A stretch of DNA of 64,000 bases, taken from Candidatus Pacearchaeota archaeon (lineage in GTDB: Archaea > Nanobdellota > Nanobdellia > Pacearchaeales > GW2011-AR1). The stretch lies in NCBI GenBank assembly GCA_038740375.1, contig JAVYLW010000006.1, positions 4,516-68,515 of the forward strand, given 5' to 3'. Position numbers and translations under genes: made by a program. This document shows, one piece after another, positions 53,336 to 62,944 of the stretch (position 1 is the stretch's first letter; every line of letters starts with the position of its first letter). The notes beneath the pieces were generated by a model. The model saw only the letters and a program-made list of their open reading frames with translations, searched no databases and had not been told where the DNA came from.

Positions 53336-53683
53336 ATGTATATAAAAAAAAATAAAAGAATAAAAAAAATTAAAATTGAATCAAATTGGAAATTATTGAT
53401 TATAATAATGATACTTTTAATAATATTAATTTTTTTAATTTTTAAAATTATGAATAATTCTAATAAAAAAAGCATAAAAAAAGAATCTTTAAATGAATTT
53501 GAATGTTTATCTGATAGTGATTGTGTAGCTTCCGAATGTTGTCATGCTAAATCTTGTGTAAATAAAAATTTTAGACCTAATTGCAGTAATGTCGTTTGTA
53601 CTATGGACTGCTCAGGCCCTCTTGATTGTGGACAAGGATATTGCGTTTGTATTAATAATAAATGTTCTATTTTTAGAGAATAA
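53336..53683 (+). CDS. Membrane-anchored small Cys-rich protein (candidate protease inhibitor)
   Basis: N-terminal TM helix; ECLSDSDCVASECCHAKSC...CSNVVCTMDC...CVCINNKC. Confidence 0.7.
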   Translation: MYIKKNKRIKKIKIESNWKLLIIIMILLIILIFLIFKIMNNSNKKSIKKESLNEFECLSDSDCVASECCHAKSCVNKNFRPNCSNVVCTMDCSGPLDCGQGYCVCINNKCSIFRE

Positions 53684-53684
53684 G

Positions 53685-56600
53685 ATGATAAAAAAAGAGG
53701 TGAAAGTAATGACAATTTTATTTTTATTATTTATATTGTTATTTATAATTTTAAAATTATCTTTTATATGTGCAAAAAACGATAATTATAAAGATAAAAT
53801 AAAATCTGAAGTTTATGAAAAACTAAAACATAATAATAAAACAAGAGTAGTAATAGAGTTTAATAATTTAAATATGAGTTATAATAAAAATGAAATCGAA
53901 AAAAAGATTGATATTAAAAAAATAAAGCGAATTCTTAAAAATAGTTTATCTGTTGAAATTGAAAGCTCTGATCTAGATAAATTAAAAAATTTAGAAATTA
54001 TAAAAGAAATAAAAGAGGATAGAATAATAAGTTATTTTTTACAAGATTCAATTCCTTTAATTAATGCAAGCTCTGTATGGAATATAAGAGTAAATGAATT
54101 AAATTTAACTGGAATTGATGAAACTATATGTATATTAGACACAGGAATTAACTTTTCTCATCCAGATTTAAAAGGAAAAAATAAAACTTGCAATATAGAT
54201 TGTGTTTATGAGAATTGTATTGAAAATTGTTCTATGAATGATGACAATGGTCATGGAACTCATGTTGCAGGAATTGCTGCGGCATATGGAAATATCAGTG
54301 GAGTTGCTATACAATCAGAAATTATTGGAGTTAAGGTATTAAATTCAAATGGAATAGGATATGGAAGTGATTTGAATGCAGGAATAGAGTGGTGTATAGA
54401 TCATTCTTCTGAATATAATATTTCTGTGATATCTATGAGTTTAGGAGATTGTTCTAATCATTCAACTTATTGTAATGATGATGAATCTGCTCCTTATATT
54501 AATGAAGCTGTGGCAAAAAATATTAGTGTAATTGTTGCTGCTGGAAACGGTCCTGGAGGAAGTTGTACTGGAATTACTAACACTCAAGGACCTTCTGCTC
54601 CTGCTTGTGTAGAAAATGCAACTGCCGTTGGAGCAGTAGACGATTATGACAATATTTTTTATCAAAGAGGAACCTTATTTGAACTACTAGCTCCTGGAAT
54701 TTCAATAAACTCAACTAAAAAAAATGGGCTATATGAAATTAGAAGTGGAACTTCTATGGCAGCTCCACATGTTGCTGGTGCAGTAGCTATATTAAAACAG
54801 TTTTACAGATTACAAAATAATAAAAATCTTACTCCTTCATTAATCAAACTCGTTCTTAATTCGAGCGGTAAAAAAATTAATGATTCAAGTGGAACTGGAC
54901 TTATTTTTTCAAGAATAAATATTCTTGATTCTATAATCTCTCTTGATTCTGTTGCTCCTAATGTAAATCTAATAAGTCCTGAAAACAACAGTATAAATTA
55001 TTCAAAAAACCCTGTTTTTTCTTGCAATGCAACAGATAGTATTGGATTATCTCAAATTTCCTTGTATATATGGGATTTGAATGGAAATTTAGTCTATAAT
55101 AACATAAGCAATATAAGTGGAAATAATAATTTTACGCAGTTTACAAATGCTAATTTAATCAACGGAAAATATTTATGGAATTGCAAAGCAACTGATTTAA
55201 ATGGAAATCAAGCTTTTTCTTTAAATAATTTTTCAATAAATATATCATTACCTATTTGGGGGATAATTAATTCTATATTTACCACTTTAAGTAATGGTAG
55301 TGAAACTACATCTGAGAGAGTAATTAACCTTAAAACATATTATGATTTTGCTTCAACAATAGAACATGACAGGCAGATTTCAAATGAGGAATGGAATATA
55401 AACAGAAATGAGGCTAATTCGAATAATACAGACAATAATTTTACATATTTTTTAGGTTATAAATGGAAAGGAGCTTCTTCAGGAAATTCAGAAATTTCTA
55501 TATTTTTTGCAGATAATGGAACTACATATCATGTCCGGGGAGATGATATAAATAATGACACTTTTTTAGAACTTTCTAAGTGGTTGTATGAAAATAATGG
55601 AATTGGGTGTATAAGTAATCCTGCTAAAATTGGAAATTCTGTAAATTGGAGTGAAGATGGAATAAATAACGAGACTATATTTCCATGTGTAGAAATATTA
55701 AATAAACATTACTATCATTGGAATGATTACTGGAATTGTTCTAATAATTCTGGTTGTAACACCTATGAAAATCCAAGTCCTGGTTTTTCTAACTGGAATG
55801 GTTCTGTCAAAAACGCATTAGATAAAGGATTGCATCTTGGTTTTGTAGGAGGATGGGAACATTATGAATCTTTAGCAATTCCTAACGTATACATAGGTAT
55901 TGTAAATGTTGAAAATTGGACAAGGTCAGGAGTAATTGATGCTATTAAAAAAAGACATACATGGGCAAGTCAAGATAAAATAATTATGAAAGTTAATTCT
56001 AGTAATGGCTCTAATTCATTTGTGATGGGAGATAAATTTTATCATCCTTATAATAATTTATATATTAGTTTTGATATTACTGCATCAGAAGGAAAGCTTA
56101 TTAAGAATATAAGTTTATTTTATGATGGAATCATAATAAATTTTACCCAACATTCTTCTTCAAATGTTCAAGGAACATTTTTTATTAATTTTTCTGACAA
56201 TAAAGAACATTATATTTTTATTGAAGCTGTACAAAATGATAGTTCAAGGGCATGGAGTAGTCCTATGTATGTAACTTCTGGACTAAATAATTTCGTATAT
56301 ATAAAAAATCTTAATAATTACTCAATTAATAGCACATCTGTTATTATAAACTGGACAACTGATGAACCTACGAATGCTTCTATTAATTATGGAACAACAA
56401 TAAATTTAGGAACCATAGTAGGAAACTCAACTTTATCAACAATTCACTCATTCATTTTAAATAATCTTAATTCAAATACAAATTATTATTATAATGTAAC
56501 GAGTTGTAATTCTTATTCAAATTGTAGTACAGATGGAATATATAGTTTTATAACTTCTTCTACAGATTCTACAGATGTCAGAGAATATTCTATTAGCGGA

Positions 56601-57254
56601 GCGAGTAGTGAAGGAGGATCAGGAGGAATTTCTGAAAAAAGTAATACTTCAAATGTATATGTTCTAACTGATAAAGATTTAATGTTAGGATTTACAAAAA
56701 AATTAAGTAAAGGTGATATCATTAAATTTAAATTAAATGATGAAATATATTACAACCTTATAGTAAACGAAATAAACGAAACATTTATAAAAATAACTAT
56801 AAAAAATAAAATAAAAAATCTGAAATTATTAATAGGTGAAGAATATAAATTAAATATCAGTTCTTCAGAAAATTATGATTTATTTTTAAGACTTAATTCT
56901 ATTGAAAAACAAAAAGCAAACTTAACTTTGAGAAGTATAAATGAATATGTAAACAAAATACAAGATAACATTATCAATGAATCAGACAATAATGAAAATG
57001 AAGATAATAATTTCGTTGAAAGATCATCTAAAGATAAAATGAGTAATAATCAAATGATTTATATTTTTTCTATTGGATTTATTTCTATATTAATAATTCT
57101 TCTTATGATTATTATAATTTTTTTTATAATTCAAATTAGAGATAAAAAAGATAACTTAAAAGAACAAAAGATTAATGAATATAAGAATATTTTTAAAAAA
57201 CATATAAAACCAAATGAAAAAAATTTAAGATATTTGAAATATAGAAAAAAATAA
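53685..57254 (+). CDS. Modular S8 subtilisin-like serine protease (prodomain, S8, Ig-like, degenerate PHP, Fn3, C-terminal TM)
   Basis: ILDTG, HGTHVAG and GTSMAAPH triad motifs, oxyanion AAGN. Probable start is ATG 53685 (MIKKEVK...), since the track start 53589 overlaps the upstream gene. Confidence 0.92.
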   Translation: MIKKEVKVMTILFLLFILLFIILKLSFICAKNDNYKDKIKSEVYEKLKHNNKTRVVIEFNNLNMSYNKNEIEKKIDIKKIKRILKNSLSVEIESSDLDKLKNLEIIKEIKEDRIISYFLQDSIPLINASSVWNIRVNELNLTGIDETICILDTGINFSHPDLKGKNKTCNIDCVYENCIENCSMNDDNGHGTHVAGIAAAYGNISGVAIQSEIIGVKVLNSNGIGYGSDLNAGIEWCIDHSSEYNISVISMSLGDCSNHSTYCNDDESAPYINEAVAKNISVIVAAGNGPGGSCTGITNTQGPSAPACVENATAVGAVDDYDNIFYQRGTLFELLAPGISINSTKKNGLYEIRSGTSMAAPHVAGAVAILKQFYRLQNNKNLTPSLIKLVLNSSGKKINDSSGTGLIFSRINILDSIISLDSVAPNVNLISPENNSINYSKNPVFSCNATDSIGLSQISLYIWDLNGNLVYNNISNISGNNNFTQFTNANLINGKYLWNCKATDLNGNQAFSLNNFSINISLPIWGIINSIFTTLSNGSETTSERVINLKTYYDFASTIEHDRQISNEEWNINRNEANSNNTDNNFTYFLGYKWKGASSGNSEISIFFADNGTTYHVRGDDINNDTFLELSKWLYENNGIGCISNPAKIGNSVNWSEDGINNETIFPCVEILNKHYYHWNDYWNCSNNSGCNTYENPSPGFSNWNGSVKNALDKGLHLGFVGGWEHYESLAIPNVYIGIVNVENWTRSGVIDAIKKRHTWASQDKIIMKVNSSNGSNSFVMGDKFYHPYNNLYISFDITASEGKLIKNISLFYDGIIINFTQHSSSNVQGTFFINFSDNKEHYIFIEAVQNDSSRAWSSPMYVTSGLNNFVYIKNLNNYSINSTSVIINWTTDEPTNASINYGTTINLGTIVGNSTLSTIHSFILNNLNSNTNYYYNVTSCNSYSNCSTDGIYSFITSSTDSTDVREYSISGASSEGGSGGISEKSNTSNVYVLTDKDLMLGFTKKLSKGDIIKFKLNDEIYYNLIVNEINETFIKITIKNKIKNLKLLIGEEYKLNISSSENYDLFLRLNSIEKQKANLTLRSINEYVNKIQDNIINESDNNENEDNNFVERSSKDKMSNNQMIYIFSIGFISILIILLMIIIIFFIIQIRDKKDNLKEQKINEYKNIFKKHIKPNEKNLRYLKYRKK

Positions 57255-57255
57255 G

Positions 57256-57537
57256 ATGAAAATGCTTAAACCTTCACATAGAGAAAAAAAAAGATATTTA
57301 CTTATAGCTGGAAAAGACGCTAATAAAAATAACATAAATGAAGCAATAATAGATTTTGTTGGAATTTTAGGTTATGCTCAAGCTTCACCACACTTAATAA
57401 AATCTAGTTCTGGAAAAATAGTTTTGTCTATTAACCGTTCAGAGTTGGATAAAGTAAGAACAAGTTTTTTAATAGGTAAAAAAGATATTAAAATTGTTAA
57501 AGTAAGTGGAAGTATTAAAAAATTAAAATTAAATTAG
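57256..57537 (+). CDS. rnp2: RNase P protein component Pop5/Rpp14
   Basis: LKPSHREKKRYLLI and C-terminal VSGSIKKL; position upstream of psmA. Confidence 0.88.
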   Translation: MKMLKPSHREKKRYLLIAGKDANKNNINEAIIDFVGILGYAQASPHLIKSSSGKIVLSINRSELDKVRTSFLIGKKDIKIVKVSGSIKKLKLN

Positions 57538-57553
57538 TAGCAAGTACCTATAT

Positions 57554-58078
57554 TTATGTAAAATATTTATCATGATAATTTAAAAGAGTTTTTGTTTTTA
57601 ATCCTATTATAACAGGATACTCAAGTAAAGAACCTGGAATCGTAGAATTATTTATTAATTCACTGATATAATCCTGTTCATCAAAAAGTTTTTTGGGATT
57701 TCCATCAAATATATATTTTAAAGGTTCGTAAATAATTTTTTGACCTTCTACTCTAAATTTTCTCCATCCATGACTAATAAATGTCGCATCACCGCTATAA
57801 TAATATACGTCTTCGTATCCATATTTTTTGCCAGATGAATCCTCTCTATTATCAATCAGAAGAACTGTAATCGGCAAAAGTAAACGAGTTAAATTATCAG
57901 TATCTTCATCAATTTCAACACAATTTAAACGAAGTTCTAAAGTTCTTTTTACTTTATCAAAAGAAGTTGGTAAATTAATTTCAGCAGTATAAAGCCAATT
58001 TTGAATACATTTTTCTTTAATATTATTAACTACTCCTTTATTTTCTTTAAAAATCAATGTCTCAAATACTGTTGACAT
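57554..58078 (-). CDS. Hypothetical protein, inverted within the superoperon
   Basis: 174-aa ORF; no motif recognised. Confidence 0.6.
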   Translation of the reverse strand: MSTVFETLIFKENKGVVNNIKEKCIQNWLYTAEINLPTSFDKVKRTLELRLNCVEIDEDTDNLTRLLLPITVLLIDNREDSSGKKYGYEDVYYYSGDATFISHGWRKFRVEGQKIIYEPLKYIFDGNPKKLFDEQDYISELINNSTIPGSLLEYPVIIGLKTKTLLNYHDKYFT

Positions 58079-58440
58079 TGTAATTATTATTTTTAAATAT
58101 TATAGATGAACATAATAAATAATAAAGTATATTTAAATATTACTCTTTATTTAATTTTATTATATTTTTATTAACCTATTTTATTTAAAACAATATCGAT
58201 ATCATCAGTCAATTATTTTAATTAATAACAATATTTATATTATAAGGAATAGTTTTTATAACCAATTTTAAAATTTTATTTTAATAATCCTTTAAAAATA
58301 CTTAGAAAGTTTTTTAAACCCTGATTTGTTATAAAAGCTGTATAGATAAATGTGGAATAATAAATCCAAAGAAGAGATTCTTTTTATTATTTCTTTGGTT
58401 TATTATTAAAAACATTAAGATTATAGGAGATAAAAATAAA

Positions 58441-59160
58441 ATGGAAATACCTGATATGCAGCATCAAGTAATGGGTTATGATAGAAGTGCAACTATGTTT
58501 TCTCCTGATGGACATATCCTTCAAGTAGAATATGCTGAAAAAACTGTTAGATTAGGTAATGCAAGTATTGGAGTAAATTGTTCAGATGGTGTTTTAATAG
58601 TTGCAGACAAAGGAGTTAAAGACAGTCTAATTGTTCCTGATTCTATTGAAAAAATTTATGAAATTGATGAGCATATAATGGCTAGTGCAGCAGGATTTAT
58701 TTCTGATGCTAGAATACTTGCTAATCATATTAGAGTTACAGCTCAGCAACATAGAGTAATTTATGATTCTCCAATTGATGTTGAATCAGTGATGAGAGAA
58801 GTTGCTGATATTCAACAACAATATACACAACATCCTGGAGTAAGACCTTTTGGAATAGCAATGATAGTTGCAGGTGTAAATGGCGAAGAATCAAAACTTT
58901 TTACAAGCAATATTACCGGAAATTATTTTGAATATAATGCAGTTGCTATTGGAGAAAATGATGAAAAAATAAAAGAAATACTAAGAAAAAAATATAAAAA
59001 AGAAATCAAAATCGAAGAAGCTTTAAAATTATGTCTTGAAATATTCAAAGAAGTATTGGGTGATAAATTTGATATAGGCAGGTTTAATGCGAGTTTAATT
59101 AAAAAAGGAGAAGGAAAAATAAAAAGATTAAAACAAGAAGAATTAAAAAAATACATCTAA
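58441..59160 (+). CDS. psmA: Proteasome subunit alpha
   Basis: GYDRSATMFSPDGHILQVEYA, RPFG, AIG; GGAG RBS upstream. Confidence 0.97.
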   Translation: MEIPDMQHQVMGYDRSATMFSPDGHILQVEYAEKTVRLGNASIGVNCSDGVLIVADKGVKDSLIVPDSIEKIYEIDEHIMASAAGFISDARILANHIRVTAQQHRVIYDSPIDVESVMREVADIQQQYTQHPGVRPFGIAMIVAGVNGEESKLFTSNITGNYFEYNAVAIGENDEKIKEILRKKYKKEIKIEEALKLCLEIFKEVLGDKFDIGRFNASLIKKGEGKIKRLKQEELKKYI

Positions 59161-59161
59161 A

Positions 59162-59839
59162 ATGACAGATACACTAGCAAGACTTAAAAGTGGTAAAATG
59201 ACTTTTGAAACTATGGTTGATTTAGATAATGCAATTAAATTAAAAAGAGGAGAAAAAGTAGATATTAATGATGTAATAAGAGACGTTGCGATATACACAG
59301 ATCAAAAAAAAGGATTTAAAGCTGGAAAAAACGAACTTATGAATTATTTTTCTACAACAGATTTTCCAACAATTGTTGAAAAAATAGTAAAGAAAGGAGA
59401 AATTGAAATTACTAAAGAATTTAGAGATGAAGCTCTTGAAAATAGAAAAAAACAGATAATAGATTTTCTTTCTAGAAATGCTATTGACAGTAGGACTAAC
59501 AGACCTTTTACACCTGATATGATAAAAGATTCAATAAAACAAGCAAAAATTAAAATAGAAAATCAGCCTGTTGAAAAACAAATAAAAAATATAATTGAGA
59601 AATTAAAAACAGTAATTCCAATAAAACTTGATACTAAAAAAATTAAAATAAAAATTCCTCCACAATTTACAGGACAGACTTATGGGCTTATTCAAGAATA
59701 TAAAGAAAAAGAAGAATGGCTCTCTGATGGAACATTAGAAGTTATTGTCTTAATTCCTACAGGATTATTAATGGATTTTTATGATAGATTAAATAAAATA
59801 ACTCATGGTGCAACCATAACTCAAGAGTTAAAGGAATAA
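59162..59839 (+). CDS. Ribosome maturation factor SBDS/Sdo1
   Basis: ARLKSGKMTFE...IYTDQKKG, QII..LSRNAID.RT..P; canonical position after psmA. Confidence 0.93.
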   Translation: MTDTLARLKSGKMTFETMVDLDNAIKLKRGEKVDINDVIRDVAIYTDQKKGFKAGKNELMNYFSTTDFPTIVEKIVKKGEIEITKEFRDEALENRKKQIIDFLSRNAIDSRTNRPFTPDMIKDSIKQAKIKIENQPVEKQIKNIIEKLKTVIPIKLDTKKIKIKIPPQFTGQTYGLIQEYKEKEEWLSDGTLEVIVLIPTGLLMDFYDRLNKITHGATITQELKE

Positions 59840-59841
59840 AA

Positions 59842-60159
59842 ATGTTAGTGCTTACTAGAGGAAGAAATCAAAGTATTCTTATTGGAAACATAGAATTAAT
59901 TGTAAAAGACATAAGAAAAGATGAAGTAATGATAGAGATAGATTATCCTTCAAATATTTCTGTATATAGAATAGAAATTTATCAATCTCTTGAAGAACAA
60001 AGACTTGAAAAAGAATTCACATCATATTTAAATAAAGAAGATTATGAAAAAGCATTTGATATTTTTTACGAATGTAGAGGAATTATAGGAACTCGAAGTG
60101 AAATTGAAAAAATGATATCTGGATTAAAAAATATAAATTATAAAAATAATAAAAAATGA
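59842..60159 (+). CDS. csrA: Carbon storage regulator CsrA-like RNA-binding protein with a C-terminal helical extension
   Basis: MLVLTRGRNQSILIG...EVMIEIDYPSNISVYRIEIYQ aligns by eye with the CsrA pattern MLILTRRVGETLMIG...[21 protein letters not shown]. Confidence 0.85.
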   Translation: MLVLTRGRNQSILIGNIELIVKDIRKDEVMIEIDYPSNISVYRIEIYQSLEEQRLEKEFTSYLNKEDYEKAFDIFYECRGIIGTRSEIEKMISGLKNINYKNNKK

Positions 60160-60854
60160 CAAAAAAAGAATCGGAAATGATTTTAGATAATAAATCTGAA
60201 AGAAAACTCGTAGTACCTGGTGAAACAATTATTAAAGGTGATAATTATTTACCTGGAGATTTTACAAGAAAAGAAGGAGAAGAAATTGTTGCTAATAGAT
60301 ACGGCTATGTAGAAATTTCTGGAAGAGTTGTTAAAATAATTCCAATTTCCGGAGTTTTCGAGCCTAGAAGAGGGAATACTGTTATTGGAAGAGTAGAAGA
60401 TATTACTTTTAATGGTTGGATTATGGACATTGGTGCTCCTTATTCTTCTTTTTTACCTTTAACTGAATGTCCAAGGTATATTGACAGAAATAATATTGCA
60501 GAATTTGCTGATATAGGTGATGTAATGACAGTAAAAATAGTTTGTGTAAAAAAAGGAGGAATAGATCTTACTCTAAAATCAAGAGGTTTAGGAAAACTTA
60601 ATGAAGGAAGAATTATAAGAATAAATCCTCATAAAGTTCCAAGAGTTATTGGAAAAGAAGGAAGCATGATAAACTTAATAAAAGGAAAAACAAATACAGA
60701 AATAATAGTAGGTCAAAACGGTTTTATTTGGATAAAAGGAGACATTGAAGGAGAAAAAAAAGCAGAAGAAACAATAAAATTAATTGCTGATGAAGCAGGG
60801 ACTTGTGGCTTAACTGATAAAATAGAAAAATTTCTTAATGGAGGAAAAAAATAA
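60156..60854 (+). CDS. rrp4: Exosome complex RNA-binding protein Rrp4
   Basis: LVVPGE, S1 domain (YEP-like FEPRRGNTVIG), KH KVPRVIGKEGSM, VGQNGFIWI. Confidence 0.96.
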   Translation: MTKKESEMILDNKSERKLVVPGETIIKGDNYLPGDFTRKEGEEIVANRYGYVEISGRVVKIIPISGVFEPRRGNTVIGRVEDITFNGWIMDIGAPYSSFLPLTECPRYIDRNNIAEFADIGDVMTVKIVCVKKGGIDLTLKSRGLGKLNEGRIIRINPHKVPRVIGKEGSMINLIKGKTNTEIIVGQNGFIWIKGDIEGEKKAEETIKLIADEAGTCGLTDKIEKFLNGGKK

Positions 60855-61571
60855 ATGGTTTATAAAAAAAGATTAGATGGAAGAGGATTTGATGAATTAA
60901 GACCTATTAAAGCTGAAGTAGGAATTATTCCTAATGCAGATGGTTCTGCACTATTTGCATTTGGAAAAACCGTTGCAATTGCAGCAGTTTATGGCCCAAA
61001 ACCTTTTCATCCTCAACATATGCAAGAGCCTGATAGAGGAGTAATAAGATGTAATTATAATATGTTACCTTTTTCTGTAGGTGAAAGAGCAAAACCAGGG
61101 CCTAGCAGAAGAAGTAAAGAGATATCTATGGTAGCTGGAAATGCTTTATCTTCTGTTGTAGATCTGTCTAGATTTCCAGGAACTGTTATAGATGTAGAAA
61201 TTATGATATTGCAAGCAAACGCCTCAACAAGATGTGCTGGAATAAATGCTGCTGTAATGGCACTTGCTCATGCTGGAATTGTTATGAAAGAAATGATTTC
61301 TTCAGTTTCAATTGGAAAAATAGATGATAAAATTGTTGTTGATATTACAAAAGAAGAAGAAGATTATGAAGAAGGTGAAGGTGCCACAGACATTCCATTC
61401 ACAATAACATCTAGAACAAATCAAATAACTCATCTTCAACTTGATGGAAGAATACCTGTCCATAGATTTCCTGAAGTAATTGAAGCTGCTAAAAAAGCTT
61501 GTGAAAAAATACTCGATTATCAAATTAGAGCATTAAAAGGAGAAAAAATAAACGAAAATAGTAAAGAATAA
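60855..61571 (+). CDS. rrp41: Exosome complex exonuclease Rrp41
   Basis: RLDGR...ELRP, ADGSA, AAVYGP, YNMLPFS, RRSKEIS, LQLDG. Confidence 0.96.
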   Translation: MVYKKRLDGRGFDELRPIKAEVGIIPNADGSALFAFGKTVAIAAVYGPKPFHPQHMQEPDRGVIRCNYNMLPFSVGERAKPGPSRRSKEISMVAGNALSSVVDLSRFPGTVIDVEIMILQANASTRCAGINAAVMALAHAGIVMKEMISSVSIGKIDDKIVVDITKEEEDYEEGEGATDIPFTITSRTNQITHLQLDGRIPVHRFPEVIEAAKKACEKILDYQIRALKGEKINENSKE

Positions 61572-61572
61572 A

Positions 61573-62388
61573 ATGCAGATACCTAATATAAATAAAAGAA
61601 AAATAATACAGTTATTAAAAGAAGGAAAAAGACTTTGTGGAAGAAAAAAATTTGAATATAGAGAAATCCAAATCGAAACAGGAATTTCTATTAATGCTGA
61701 AGGTTCTGCAAGAGTTAAAATCGGAAAAACTGAAGTAATAGTCGGAGTTAAAATGGATATTCAAGAGCCTTATCCTGACCATGAAGATGAAGGGACTTTA
61801 ATTACATCTATGGAATTTTCAGCTATAGCTGAAGAAAGATATGAATCAGGACCTCCCCAAATTGATTCAATCGAAGTAGCAAGAGTTGTTGATAGAGGTA
61901 TAAGAGAATCAGGATTCATTGACTGGAAAAAATTATGTATTAAAAAAGGAGAAAAAGTTTGGAGTATTTTAATAGATATTTATTGTATGAATGATGACGG
62001 AAATGTAATAGATGCTAGCTCTATTGGAGCAGTTGCAGCTTTAAAAGTAGCAAGATTTCCAGTTTATGATGAGAAAACCGAAAAAATAAAATTTGGTGAA
62101 TTTACAGATGAACCTCTTCCTCTAACTAATAATATACCTTTAACAATGACTTTTTATAAAATAGGAGAATATATAATAATGGATCCTACAAGAGAGGAAG
62201 AAGATGCTGCTGATGCAAGATTAACTTTTGCAGTATCTTGTCCAAAAAAAGAGAAAATAATAAACGCCTTGCAAAAAGGTGGAATTACCTCAATTTCTAT
62301 TGAAGAAATTAAAAGTATGATAGAACAAGTAGAAGAAACATATGATAAAATATTTCCTGATATTGAAAAAAAATTAAAATTGTATTGA
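61573..62388 (+). CDS. rrp42: Exosome complex component Rrp42
   Basis: AEGSA.VKIG.T, ESGPP, RVVDRGIRES, DDGNVIDA, DPTREEE. Confidence 0.96.
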   Translation: MQIPNINKRKIIQLLKEGKRLCGRKKFEYREIQIETGISINAEGSARVKIGKTEVIVGVKMDIQEPYPDHEDEGTLITSMEFSAIAEERYESGPPQIDSIEVARVVDRGIRESGFIDWKKLCIKKGEKVWSILIDIYCMNDDGNVIDASSIGAVAALKVARFPVYDEKTEKIKFGEFTDEPLPLTNNIPLTMTFYKIGEYIIMDPTREEEDAADARLTFAVSCPKKEKIINALQKGGITSISIEEIKSMIEQVEETYDKIFPDIEKKLKLY

Positions 62389-62476: not shown

Positions 62477-62944
62477 ATGACGAATATAGAATCACTAGAA
62501 GACCTAGAAAAAAAATTCACGAAATATGAAATAGCTAGGATTATTGGAGCTAGAAGTTTGCAACTTTCTATGGATGCTCCTATACTTTTAAAAATGACAA
62601 AAGAAGAAGAGGAAGAACTTAATTATGATACTTTAAAAATTGCTGAAAAAGAGTTAATTGCAGGAGTTTTACCTATAACTGTAAGAAGACCTTTACCTAA
62701 AAAATCTTCAAAAGTAATTAAAAAACTATCAGAAGAAGAGATAAAAGAAAAACTTGAAGAAAAAGCTAAAAAAGAAGAAAAACTTGAAGAAAAAACTGAA
62801 ATTGAATCTGAAAGTGAAGGTGTTATTGAAGAATCAGAAGATTTAGAAAAAAGAGAAAAGATTGATATTGAAGATGAATTAATGGAAATGGCAACTCCTG
62901 AAGATGAAATAGAAGAAGAGGAAGATATAAACGAATATGAGTAG
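62477..62944 (+). CDS. rpoK: RNA polymerase subunit K (Rpo6) with a long acidic C-terminal tail
   Basis: FTKYEIARIIGARSLQLSMDAP...IAEKEL..GVLPITVRR core, then about 80 Glu/Lys-rich residues. Confidence 0.95.
   Translation: MTNIESLEDLEKKFTKYEIARIIGARSLQLSMDAPILLKMTKEEEEELNYDTLKIAEKELIAGVLPITVRRPLPKKSSKVIKKLSEEEIKEKLEEKAKKEEKLEEKTEIESESEGVIEESEDLEKREKIDIEDELMEMATPEDEIEEEEDINEYE

What the first reader, a model, noticed from the sequence alone, without database searches (positions are those of the whole stretch)
59842..60159. Bacterial-type CsrA embedded in the archaeal exosome operon: candidate new post-transcriptional control system
Seen: residues 1-50 match CsrA nearly position by position, keeping the RNA-contact residues equivalent to L2, L4, R6, V42, R44 and I47, as well as G15 and P37. 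R7, R31 and G33 are substituted, and a ~50-aa helical extension is added (EEQRLEKEFTSYLNKEDYEKAFDIFYECRG...). The gene starts 2 nt after the SBDS stop and overlaps the rrp4 start (ATGA), so it is translationally coupled to the exosome cap subunit. Codon style matches the host, and SD-like GGAG/GAGG sites precede several genes here (psmA, oapB, trmB). Established: CsrA/RsmA is a bacterial (and phage) dimer that binds GGA motifs, blocks ribosome loading and alters mRNA decay; I know of no characterised archaeal member. Inference: a horizontally acquired CsrA domesticated as an mRNA-selecting adaptor or regulator for the exosome or ribosome maturation, with the extension as a possible docking arm.
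Basis: partly seen in the sequence, partly recalled or inferred. Interest (0 to 1): 0.88.

Follow-up and report, generated by a model that had tools for sequence, protein, structure and literature searches.

The report
Bacterial-type CsrA inside archaeal exosome operon
A tiny AT-rich archaeon carries a real copy of the bacterial RNA-binding regulator CsrA, extended by a new three-helix tail and wedged between the SBDS and Rrp4 genes of the exosome operon; relatives share this layout but often lose the gene, so it looks like an optional RNA regulator of bacterial origin whose job is untested.

Summary
ORF 59842-60159 (105 aa) matches Pfam CsrA (E 2.6e-13, 50 bits against a cut-off of 27). Its AlphaFold model hits only CsrA/RsmA/RsmE chains in the PDB, and it keeps L2, L4, R6, V42, R44 and I47. 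It lies 2 nt after SBDS and overlaps rrp4 by ATGA.

It is not a chimera or a one-strain insertion. In the same genus, 18 of 20 CsrA-bearing genomes have the gene beside SBDS. Five of five tailed homologues from unrelated metagenomes lie between SBDS and rrp4. GC3 tracks each host.

The 55-aa tail is a conserved, confidently folded three-helix module. It matches no Pfam or PDB entry and was absent from 80 bacterial CsrAs, mostly Planctomycetota, whose CsrA domain is about 85% identical to the archaeal ones.

The gene is accessory. Twenty-one genomes of the genus lack it, with SBDS abutting rrp4, and the host tree needs at least 6 gains or losses. No FliW and no CsrB-like decoy RNA were found.

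The exosome-adaptor idea stays untested; an autonomous GGA/SD-binding regulator is at least as likely. I found no paper describing an archaeal CsrA. Another agent of this scan reported the same family in a different genome.

The parts
58425..58429 (+). SD-like AGGAG 11 nt upstream of the psmA start, in the leader of the operon's first gene
   Evidence: Read directly from the sequence.
58441..59160 (+). psmA, proteasome alpha subunit; first gene of the tight operon
   Evidence: Pfam Proteasome E 2.1e-47 and Proteasome_A_N. There is a 1-nt gap to SBDS.
59162..59839 (+). SBDS-family gene
   Evidence: Pfam SBDS_N, SBDS_domain_II and SBDS_C are all over their cut-offs.
59831..59836 (+). AAGGAA, an SD-like GGA motif made by the last SBDS codons (AAG GAA), 5 nt before the csrA ATG. 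It is a likely ribosome-binding site for csrA and a possible CsrA self-binding site.
   Evidence: Sequence. A GGA lies at -20..-3 in 32 of 44 archaeal csrA genes, against 7 of 29 rrp4 and 7 of 28 SBDS starts.
59842..59994 (+). CsrA domain (aa 1-51)
   Evidence: Pfam CsrA E 2.6e-13. PDB sequence hits are all CsrA/RsmA/RsmE. The top 15 Foldseek hits are all CsrA chains, with target-normalised TM-scores of 0.44-0.71. It has the longest terminal branch among the archaeal copies.
59995..60156 (+). C-terminal three-helix tail (aa 52-105). It is lineage-specific, with F59, L63, A71, G94 and L95 invariant in the family.
   Evidence: Alignment A1. AF2 pLDDT is 91-95 in the full model and 90 alone. No Pfam family matches and the best Foldseek PDB hit has E 2.2, weakly TPR/PPR-like. 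The tail HMM hits no other ORF in the genome and none of 80 bacterial CsrAs.
60156..60159 (+). ATGA overlap of the csrA stop with the rrp4 start (translational coupling)
   Evidence: Sequence.
60156..60854 (+). rrp4, exosome cap subunit (S1 + KH)
   Evidence: Pfam KH_6 and KH_1 over their cut-offs; RRP4_S1 and ECR1_N_2 just below theirs.
60855..61571 (+). rrp41 (RNase PH ring subunit), preceded by GGAGGA at 60840-60845
   Evidence: Pfam RNase_PH E 3.3e-32; sequence.
61573..62388 (+). rrp42 (RNase PH ring subunit), last gene of the tight run
   Evidence: Pfam RNase_PH E 1.8e-31.

Best explanation
The gene encodes a genuine CsrA-family RNA-binding protein of bacterial (Planctomycetota-like) ancestry. 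It entered one lineage of small-genome DPANN archaea long ago and settled in the psmA-SBDS-rrp4-rrp41-rrp42 operon. There it acquired a lineage-specific, TPR-like three-helix tail.

Shown: family membership by sequence and fold, the key RNA-contact residues, operon position, conservation across species, compositional amelioration, and accessory status (frequent loss).

Inferred: it forms the usual intertwined dimer and binds single-stranded GGA motifs. In this AT-rich, mostly leaderless genome such motifs occur chiefly as Shine-Dalgarno-like sites of leadered or internal cistrons, including its own AAGGAA site. Binding there would tune translation and hence mRNA fate. Because it sits in a constitutive operon, it is produced together with the exosome. 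The tail probably provides a protein-protein or regulatory surface in place of the bacterial antagonists FliW and CsrB, which are absent.
For: Identity:
- Pfam CsrA over the cut-off; PDB sequence and fold matches are only to CsrA/RsmA/RsmE.
- L4 and R44, the residues singled out as critical (PMC7652899), are kept.

Not an artefact:
- The same slot is used in 18 of 20 CsrA-bearing genomes of the genus.
- It is also used in 5 of 5 independent metagenome contigs, from TARA, JGI, ENA and Logan.
- GC and GC3 follow each host's flanking genes over a GC range of 22-44%.

Selection:
- Domain dN/dS is about 0.05-0.3; some tail residues are invariant.

Bacterial origin:
- Archaeal domains are about 85% identical to Planctomycetota CsrAs and interleave with them in the tree.
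- CsrA was found in 5 of 401 genomes of the phylum sample and in one family only within the order.
- The literature reports CsrA only from bacteria (PMC7366521), with Planctomycetota among the phyla where it is widely found (PMC13443453).

SD link:
- The 16S 3' end is GGATCACCTCCT.
- A GGA lies upstream of 32 of 44 csrA genes, against about a quarter of the flanking genes' starts.

Accessory status:
- 21 genomes of the genus lack it, with clean empty sites; at least 6 changes are needed on the SBDS+Rrp4 tree.
Against: - No RNA-binding, dimerisation or expression data could be obtained.
- The window's copy is the most derived of all. It scores 51 bits against 59-92 for the other full-length copies in the genus, differs at 15 of the 27 positions that are nearly invariant in alignment A2, has R7 replaced by G, and has the longest branch. 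Its RNA specificity or even binding may have changed.
- It falls below NCBIfam's equivalog cut-offs (46 against 73 bits).
- Only about 4-9% of ORF starts in this genome have an SD, so the pool of canonical targets is small.
- Tail dN/dS is high, about 0.3-1.
Confidence: 0.65

Rival explanations
1. Exosome (or SBDS/ribosome-maturation) adaptor. The CsrA dimer selects GGA-bearing RNAs, and its helical tail docks on the Rrp4 cap, the RNase PH ring or SBDS. In that way it delivers transcripts to, or shields them from, 3'-5' decay.
For: - The tail and the operon slot go together. Every tailed CsrA found lies in the psmA-SBDS-rrp4 block.
- CsrAs elsewhere in related genera, or elsewhere in the same genomes, lack the tail, as do 80 bacterial CsrAs.
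- The gene is translationally coupled to rrp4 (ATGA) here and in several relatives.
- The tail folds confidently into a TPR-like helical unit, a type that usually mediates protein contacts.
- Tailed copies are inherited vertically within sub-clades.
Against: - The gene is lost repeatedly while the exosome genes stay.
- Tail-less CsrAs sit in the same slot.
- In G006 the gene lies between psmA and SBDS instead.
- Unrelated small ORFs occupy other junctions, so the operon looks like a general landing pad.
- The residues conserved in the tail are mostly hydrophobic core positions (F, L, A and aromatic residues), not an obvious surface patch.
- No multimer prediction or interaction data are available.
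Confidence: 0.2
2. Passenger or decaying gene. The operon junctions are permissive sites where small genes hitch-hike on strong constitutive expression. On this reading, the window's highly derived copy is under relaxed constraint and no longer acts as a CsrA. It would be either neutral or serving some non-RNA role of the tail.
For: - It has the longest branch and the weakest HMM score among the full-length copies in the genus, and R7, R31, G33 and many near-invariant positions are replaced.
- Loss is frequent in sister species.
- Other small, unrelated ORFs sit at neighbouring junctions.
- Tail dN/dS approaches 1 in some pairs.
Against: - The frame is intact.
- All positions invariant across the tailed family are kept, including L2, V3, R6, D27, P36, R43, F59, A71, G94 and L95.
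- The alternating hydrophobic pattern of the beta strands is kept.
- The whole chain, tail included, is modelled confidently.
- A dedicated SD-like site precedes the gene.
- The extreme AT bias of this genome (24.5% GC) explains many K, N, I, E and Y replacements without invoking decay.
Confidence: 0.13
3. Assembly chimera or bacterial contamination in the MAG.
For: None beyond the bacterial affinity of the domain.
Against: - The gene lies 2 nt and -4 nt from archaeal genes on a 75-kb contig.
- The same arrangement appears in about 25 independent assemblies.
- GC3 is 8.5%, like the host genes around it.
Confidence: 0.01

Closest known systems
Planctomycetota CsrA (for example P0198 'Planctomycetaceae bacterium', P0214 and P0237 'Pirellulaceae bacterium' carbon storage regulator)
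   Same: These have the same 52-residue CsrA domain. Less derived archaeal orthologues in the same operon slot are about 85% identical to them (MLVLSRHRDESIMIGDD..VDIRGDKVRLGIDAPKEIPVHRQEVYEAI). They dominate the nearest named genomes.
   Different: The bacterial proteins have short, unconserved tails, and none of 80 matches the archaeal tail HMM. They lie in bacterial genomes, not in an exosome operon. The window's own domain is much more derived, at about 40-50% identity.
E. coli CsrA / Pseudomonas RsmA and RsmE (PDB 1y00, 2bti, 1vpz, 2jpp, 7yr6)
   Same: The fold and the beta1/beta5 RNA-contact residues (L2, L4, R6, V42, R44, I47) are shared. Sequence E-values are 2e-5 to 6e-4 and Foldseek TM-scores normalised to the target are 0.44-0.71. 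An SD-like GGA in front of its own gene recalls E. coli csrA autoregulation (PMC7652899).
   Different: R7, R31 and G33 are replaced. There is a 55-aa three-helix tail. No CsrB/RsmZ-type decoy RNA was detected. The host is an archaeon with mostly leaderless mRNAs.
Bacillus/Geobacillus CsrA-FliW (PDB 5dmb, 1t3o)
   Same: This is a CsrA whose C-terminal extension beyond the core is the contact surface for a protein regulator. That is a precedent for a functional tail (rank 6; PMC13443453).
   Different: FliW is absent from all 26 archaeal CsrA-bearing genomes tested. The tail here is longer, is a folded three-helix unit, and is unrelated in sequence.
Archaeal exosome superoperon (proteasome alpha - SBDS - Rrp4 - Rrp41 - Rrp42; the comparative-genomic description by Koonin, Wolf and Aravind in 2001 is cited from my own knowledge)
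   Same: The gene order and the tight coupling of the flanking genes match. CsrA-less relatives show the canonical SBDS|rrp4 junction.
   Different: CsrA is an added, lineage-restricted cistron that is not part of the described superoperon.
CsrA in a DPANN exosome operon, reported by another agent of this scan in a different genome (e1-4611621)
   Same: It reports the same family, the same operon slot, the helical tail and the Planctomycetota affinity.
   Different: It is an unpublished AI note on another genome. The window's copy is a more derived member. I re-derived the claims independently here.

Membership tests
CsrA/RsmA family (Pfam PF02599) | Sequence match to the family HMM above the curated gathering score | tested here: met
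   50.1 bits against a cut-off of 27, E 2.6e-13, covering profile positions 1-52 of 53. 51 bits in the six-frame genome search.
CsrA/RsmA family (Pfam PF02599) | CsrA fold: five short beta strands followed by a C-terminal alpha helix | tested here: met
   AF2 model with pLDDT 84.5. The top 15 Foldseek PDB hits are all CsrA/RsmA/RsmE, with about 54 aligned columns in 13 of them, target-normalised TM-scores of 0.44-0.71 and best E 5e-4. DSSP assigns only beta2-beta4 in the monomer model, which is expected because beta1 and beta5 pair with the other subunit.
CsrA/RsmA family (Pfam PF02599) | Critical RNA-contact residues L4 and R44, plus L2, R6, V42 and I47 | tested here: met
   L2, L4, R6, V41, R43 and I46 align to these positions. 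Their importance is taken from PMC7652899. R7 is not conserved (G7).
CsrA/RsmA family (Pfam PF02599) | Intertwined homodimer with two RNA-binding faces | not testable with these tools
   Only single-chain prediction was available. The hydrophobic strand pattern is kept.
CsrA/RsmA family (Pfam PF02599) | Binding of GGA motifs in single-stranded RNA or hairpin loops | not testable with these tools
   This needs EMSA or SELEX. The only support is indirect: SD-like GGA sites, including one before its own gene.
Canonical CsrA equivalog (NCBIfam NF002469 / TIGR00202) | Score above NCBI's equivalog cut-off | tested here: not met
   46.1 bits against 73, and 44.9 against 70.1. It is a family member, not an equivalog of the enterobacterial or Bacillus CsrA.
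Csr/Rsm regulatory system (CsrA plus an antagonist) | A protein antagonist, FliW | tested here: not met
   PF02623 is absent from 26 of 26 archaeal CsrA-bearing genomes. The controls B. subtilis and T. maritima were detected.
Csr/Rsm regulatory system (CsrA plus an antagonist) | A decoy sRNA with many GGA motifs (CsrB/RsmZ type) | tested here: inconclusive
   No intergenic region of the 85%-complete genome exceeds about 2.5 GGA per 100 nt, and the GGA-dense windows are Gly-rich coding sequence. Rfam found none in the window. The scan was crude, and a small decoy with 2-4 sites would be missed.
Archaeal exosome superoperon | Co-linear, tightly spaced psmA-SBDS-rrp4-rrp41-rrp42 | tested here: met
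   Gaps are 1, 2, -4, 0 and 1 nt. Gene identities are confirmed by Pfam.
Exosome cofactor or subunit (physical partner of Rrp4/Rrp41/Rrp42) | Co-occurrence with the exosome across genomes, and physical interaction | tested here: not met
   For co-occurrence, all 33 CsrA-bearing and 8 CsrA-less genomes checked have SBDS, and in the loci fetched it lies next to rrp4. Yet 21 genomes of the genus lack CsrA, and the phylum-wide frequency is 5 of 401. Physical interaction is not testable here.

The most novel reading that the evidence does not exclude
The tailed CsrA is a physically docked specificity factor of the archaeal exosome or of SBDS-dependent ribosome maturation. In this reading a bacterial translational repressor was captured by a DPANN lineage and refitted, through a newly evolved TPR-like helical tail, into an adaptor. 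The adaptor would hand GGA-marked transcripts to the 3'-5' decay machine or protect them from it. This would be an archaeal, horizontally acquired analogue of eukaryotic exosome adaptor proteins.
Probability: 0.17. Interest if true: 0.85.

Novelty: new variant of a known kind. Interest (0 to 1): 0.62.

Why it matters
CsrA is one of the best-studied bacterial post-transcriptional regulators, and a 2020 survey states that it had been found only in bacteria (PMC7366521). Here it is a long-resident gene in one archaeal lineage, under selection there. It sits in the most conserved RNA-processing operon of archaea and carries a new folded tail, with none of the known antagonists present.

This gives a compact natural experiment on three questions. 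How does a bacterial SD/GGA-reading protein work in a cell whose mRNAs are mostly leaderless and whose decay machine is the exosome? Did it become linked to that machine? What replaces FliW or CsrB control?

All of this can be tested with small recombinant proteins. It also adds to the list of bacterial regulators, such as the sigma-70-like genes noted in this same genome, that DPANN archaea have taken up.

Tried and rejected
- **Single-protein word-index search.** It found only the protein itself. The exhaustive representative search and a profile search were needed to find relatives.
- **FliW search.** Absent from all 26 genomes tested, so a FliW-type partner is rejected.
- **CsrB-like decoy scan and Rfam on the window.** GGA-dense windows are Gly-rich coding sequence. 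The best candidate, C2:85431-85553, is a repeat inside a minus-strand thioredoxin-like gene. No decoy was found, but the scan was crude.
- **Shared motif between the tail's last helix and the ~90-aa operon ORFs.** I compared the tail's last helix (EIEKMISGL) with the C-terminus (LLKMINGLELN) of the ~90-aa ORFs that sit at other operon junctions. hhalign aligns exactly those 11 columns but with probability 0.7%, so no claim is made.
- **Stand-alone tail domain.** The tail HMM hits nothing else in the genome or in the fetched loci.
- **Fold search with the tail alone.** No significant PDB match; the best hits are PPR and TPR repeats at E 2-6. There is no Pfam match either.
- **CsrA-domain tree.** With 56 columns it is unresolved, so it cannot separate one transfer from several or name a donor clade. 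It shows only that archaeal and Planctomycetota sequences interleave.
- **Pairwise dN/dS.** dS is saturated in most pairs, so only the qualitative contrast between a constrained domain and a fast tail is used.
- **The search for related loci.** The broad alignment failed for lack of a conserved stretch.
- **Chimera or contamination.** Rejected on synteny and composition.

Full report
**1. Observation**

The ORF at 59842-60159 (+) encodes 105 residues.
- Pfam CsrA (PF02599) matches residues 1-51 to profile positions 1-52 of 53, with E 2.6e-13 and 50.1 bits against a gathering score of 27.
- NCBIfam's csrA equivalog models also match, but below their strict cut-offs: 46 against 73 bits and 45 against 70.
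- Against PDB sequences, the only hits are CsrA, RsmA and RsmE (best 1y00, E 2e-5).
- The printed alignment shows L2, L4, R6, G15, P37, V42, R44 and I47 (E. coli numbering) retained. R7 is G, R31 is M and G33 is E, with a one-residue deletion after G15.
- A published review singles out L4 and R44 as critical for RNA binding (PMC7652899).
- An AlphaFold2 model built on a 40-sequence alignment has mean pLDDT 84.5. It has strands at 10-14, 17-24 and 29-34, and helices at 44-64, 68-77 and 85-104.
- The first 15 Foldseek PDB matches are all CsrA-family chains, with target-normalised TM-scores of 0.44-0.71. Thirteen of them align over about 54 columns.
- The neighbours are confirmed as proteasome alpha, SBDS, Rrp4, Rrp41, Rrp42 and then RpoK.

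**2. It is neither an artefact nor a one-strain insertion**

- The window lies on a 75-kb contig of a 0.97-Mb genome that is 85% complete and has 24.5% GC. Earlier notes of this scan call it Pacearchaeota. I did not verify the name, but the gene content is archaeal.
- CsrA is present in 19 of the 37 genus genomes in the first sample, and one further carrier appeared in the order-level sample.
- Comparing CsrA and SBDS coordinates shows that 18 of these 20 genomes have CsrA on the same contig and strand, within about 1.5 kb of SBDS.
- A bulk ORF/HMM annotation of the fetched loci shows the order psmA-SBDS-CsrA-rrp4-rrp41. There is one variant in which CsrA lies between psmA and SBDS (G006). Several genomes carry tandem pairs.
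- Five of five tailed homologues taken from unrelated metagenome assemblies (TARA ocean, JGI, ENA, Logan) lie in the same slot.
- GC and GC3 of csrA follow the flanking SBDS and rrp4 genes in every genome, over a range from 22% to 44% GC. The gene is therefore long-resident and ameliorated.

**3. Two kinds of CsrA occupy the slot**

- The first kind is tailed. It includes the window's copy and carries a conserved C-terminal module in which F59, L63, A71, G94 and L95 are invariant and an aromatic residue at position 69 is nearly so.
- The second kind is tail-less. Its domain is almost Planctomycete-like, followed by an unconserved, low-complexity end.
- Tandem pairs usually combine one copy of each kind.
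- The tail modelled alone is a confident three-helix unit (pLDDT 90).
- The tail has no Pfam match and no significant PDB match. The best hits are PPR and TPR repeats at E 2-6.
- A tail HMM finds nothing else in this genome.
- It also finds nothing in 80 bacterial CsrAs, nor in archaeal CsrAs located outside the operon.
- The tail and the operon slot therefore go together. This is the best circumstantial argument for a functional link.

**4. Origin**

- In the order-level sample, CsrA passes the Pfam cut-off in 23 of 401 genomes, all in one family.
- In the phylum-level sample of high-quality genomes it occurs in 5 of 401.
- The nearest named sequences are overwhelmingly Planctomycetota: Phycisphaerales, Pirellulales and Planctomycetaceae. 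The less derived archaeal domains are about 85% identical to them.
- CsrA is reported in about 30% of bacterial genomes, with Planctomycetota among the phyla where it is widely found (PMC13443453). A 2020 survey states it had been detected only in bacteria (PMC7366521).
- A tree of the 56-column domain is unresolved. Archaeal and planctomycete sequences interleave, and the window's copy has the longest terminal branch.
- Transfer from bacteria to archaea is thus the economical reading. The number of transfers and the exact donor remain open.

**5. Selection and dispensability**

- Rough pairwise Nei-Gojobori estimates give dN/dS of about 0.05-0.3 for the CsrA domain and about 0.3-1 for the tail. 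dS is saturated in most pairs. The best pair, L004/L038, has dS 0.61, domain 0.10 and tail 0.79.
- Twenty-one genomes of the genus have no CsrA, even when searched with the family's own profile.
- In eight of them SBDS directly abuts rrp4.
- On an SBDS+Rrp4 tree of 30 loci, presence or absence needs at least 6 changes. Strongly supported sister pairs differ in state. Tailed copies are clustered in sub-clades.
- The gene is therefore inherited vertically but lost often. It is accessory, not a core exosome component.

**6. What it probably does**

- No FliW is present in 26 CsrA-bearing archaeal genomes.
- No GGA-dense intergenic RNA exists in this genome, and Rfam finds no Csr/Rsm sRNA in the window.
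- The 16S rRNA ends in GGATCACCTCCT, so Shine-Dalgarno pairing is possible.
- However, only about 4% of ORF starts have GGAGG upstream, and an A-rich peak at -26..-22 indicates mainly leaderless transcripts.
- Within the operon, psmA (AGGAG), csrA (AAGGAA) and rrp41 (GGAGGA) have such sites.
- Across relatives, a GGA lies at -20..-3 of 32 of 44 csrA genes, against 7 of 29 rrp4 and 7 of 28 SBDS starts.
- My best reading (confidence 0.65) is a conventional CsrA-type dimer that binds GGA/SD-like sites of the minority of leadered or internal cistrons, possibly including its own. It would be co-produced with the exosome because it sits in that operon, and the tail would serve as a new partner or regulatory surface.
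It is weakened by the frequent loss, by the tail-less occupants of the same slot, and by unrelated small ORFs at other junctions. I give it about 0.2.
- A decaying or neutral passenger gets about 0.13. The window's copy is the most derived: it has the weakest score among the full-length copies in the genus and differs at 15 of the 27 positions nearly invariant in alignment A2. Even so, it keeps every family-invariant residue and a confidently folded tail.
- A chimera gets about 0.01.

**7. Novelty**

- I found no paper describing an archaeal CsrA.
- Automated annotation already labels some of these proteins 'carbon storage regulator'.
- Another agent of this scan reported the same family in another genome. 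I re-derived its main claims independently.
- I classify the finding as a new variant of a known kind. It is a known fold and family in a new domain of life, with a new tail, a fixed place in the exosome operon and no known antagonists.

**8. Limits**

- No multimer modelling was available.
- The taxon name rests on earlier notes.
- The dN/dS values and the tree are rough.

Noticed in passing
L050:1206-1490 (G005), L047:2839-3114 (G027); also L004:2345-2734, L003:2527-2847, L039:879-1211 and 3336-3581: Relatives carry other small ORFs (about 80-130 aa, with no family recognised by eye or in the precomputed Pfam hits of the contig look-ups) at other junctions of the same exosome operon. Two of them end in ...LLKMINGLELN and ...LLKMIEGLKLN, which resembles the end of the CsrA tail (...EIEKMISGLKNI). 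hhalign aligns exactly these 11 columns but without significance (probability 0.7%).
   Followed up: partly
L002, L003:1501-1788, L007:1366-1656, L009, L039:1904-2200, L021, L037: The tail-less archaeal CsrAs have low-complexity ends that repeatedly finish in an aromatic residue (...YSNNY, ...PLRNY, ...RLYNF, ...LLYNKY, ...LSYSHY, ...DVRGY). This could be a short C-terminal motif. It was not analysed.
   Followed up: no
Proteins P0003, P0006-P0011, P0151-P0161: Many of the strongest database hits are single polypeptides with two complete CsrA domains in tandem (130-190 aa), that is, potential single-chain pseudo-dimers. Their organisms were not determined. One lies on an 854-kb contig, so is probably bacterial.
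   Followed up: no
whole genome G000: The genome has 24.5% GC. Upstream of ORF starts there is an A-rich peak at -26..-22, and only about 4% have GGAGG. This suggests mostly leaderless mRNAs, with SD use restricted to a minority of cistrons.
   Followed up: partly
window 62477-62944 (+): The RpoK/Rpb6 homologue (Pfam match on residues 10-67, E 1.2e-7) carries a Lys/Glu-rich acidic C-terminal extension of about 85 residues, giving 155 aa in total.
   Followed up: no
window 57256-57537 (+) and 53589-57254 (+): A 93-aa ORF with a weak, sub-threshold Rpp14/Pop5 match (E 0.0018, 18.8 bits against a cut-off of 23) starts 2 nt after a 1221-aa ORF. By eye, that large ORF looks like a membrane-anchored subtilisin-type surface protein; it was not scanned against Pfam. 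The 174-aa ORF at 57554-58078 (-) has no Pfam match.
   Followed up: no
L021:727-1650 (G001) and L037:588-1449 (G028): Extra-operon CsrA copies in two genomes of the genus share their own synteny. In both, the gene lies directly upstream of a ~196-aa Cys-containing protein, which by eye has a DUF1858-like part followed by a HesB/IscA-like part. This suggests a second conserved CsrA context.
   Followed up: no
L135:1321-1677 (G555, another family of the same class): This is a divergent CsrA (49.5 bits) with a different 65-aa tail. It lies next to a polytopic membrane protein, possibly a prepilin-peptidase-like one. It is the only CsrA found outside the window's family in the 401-genome phylum sample.
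   Followed up: no
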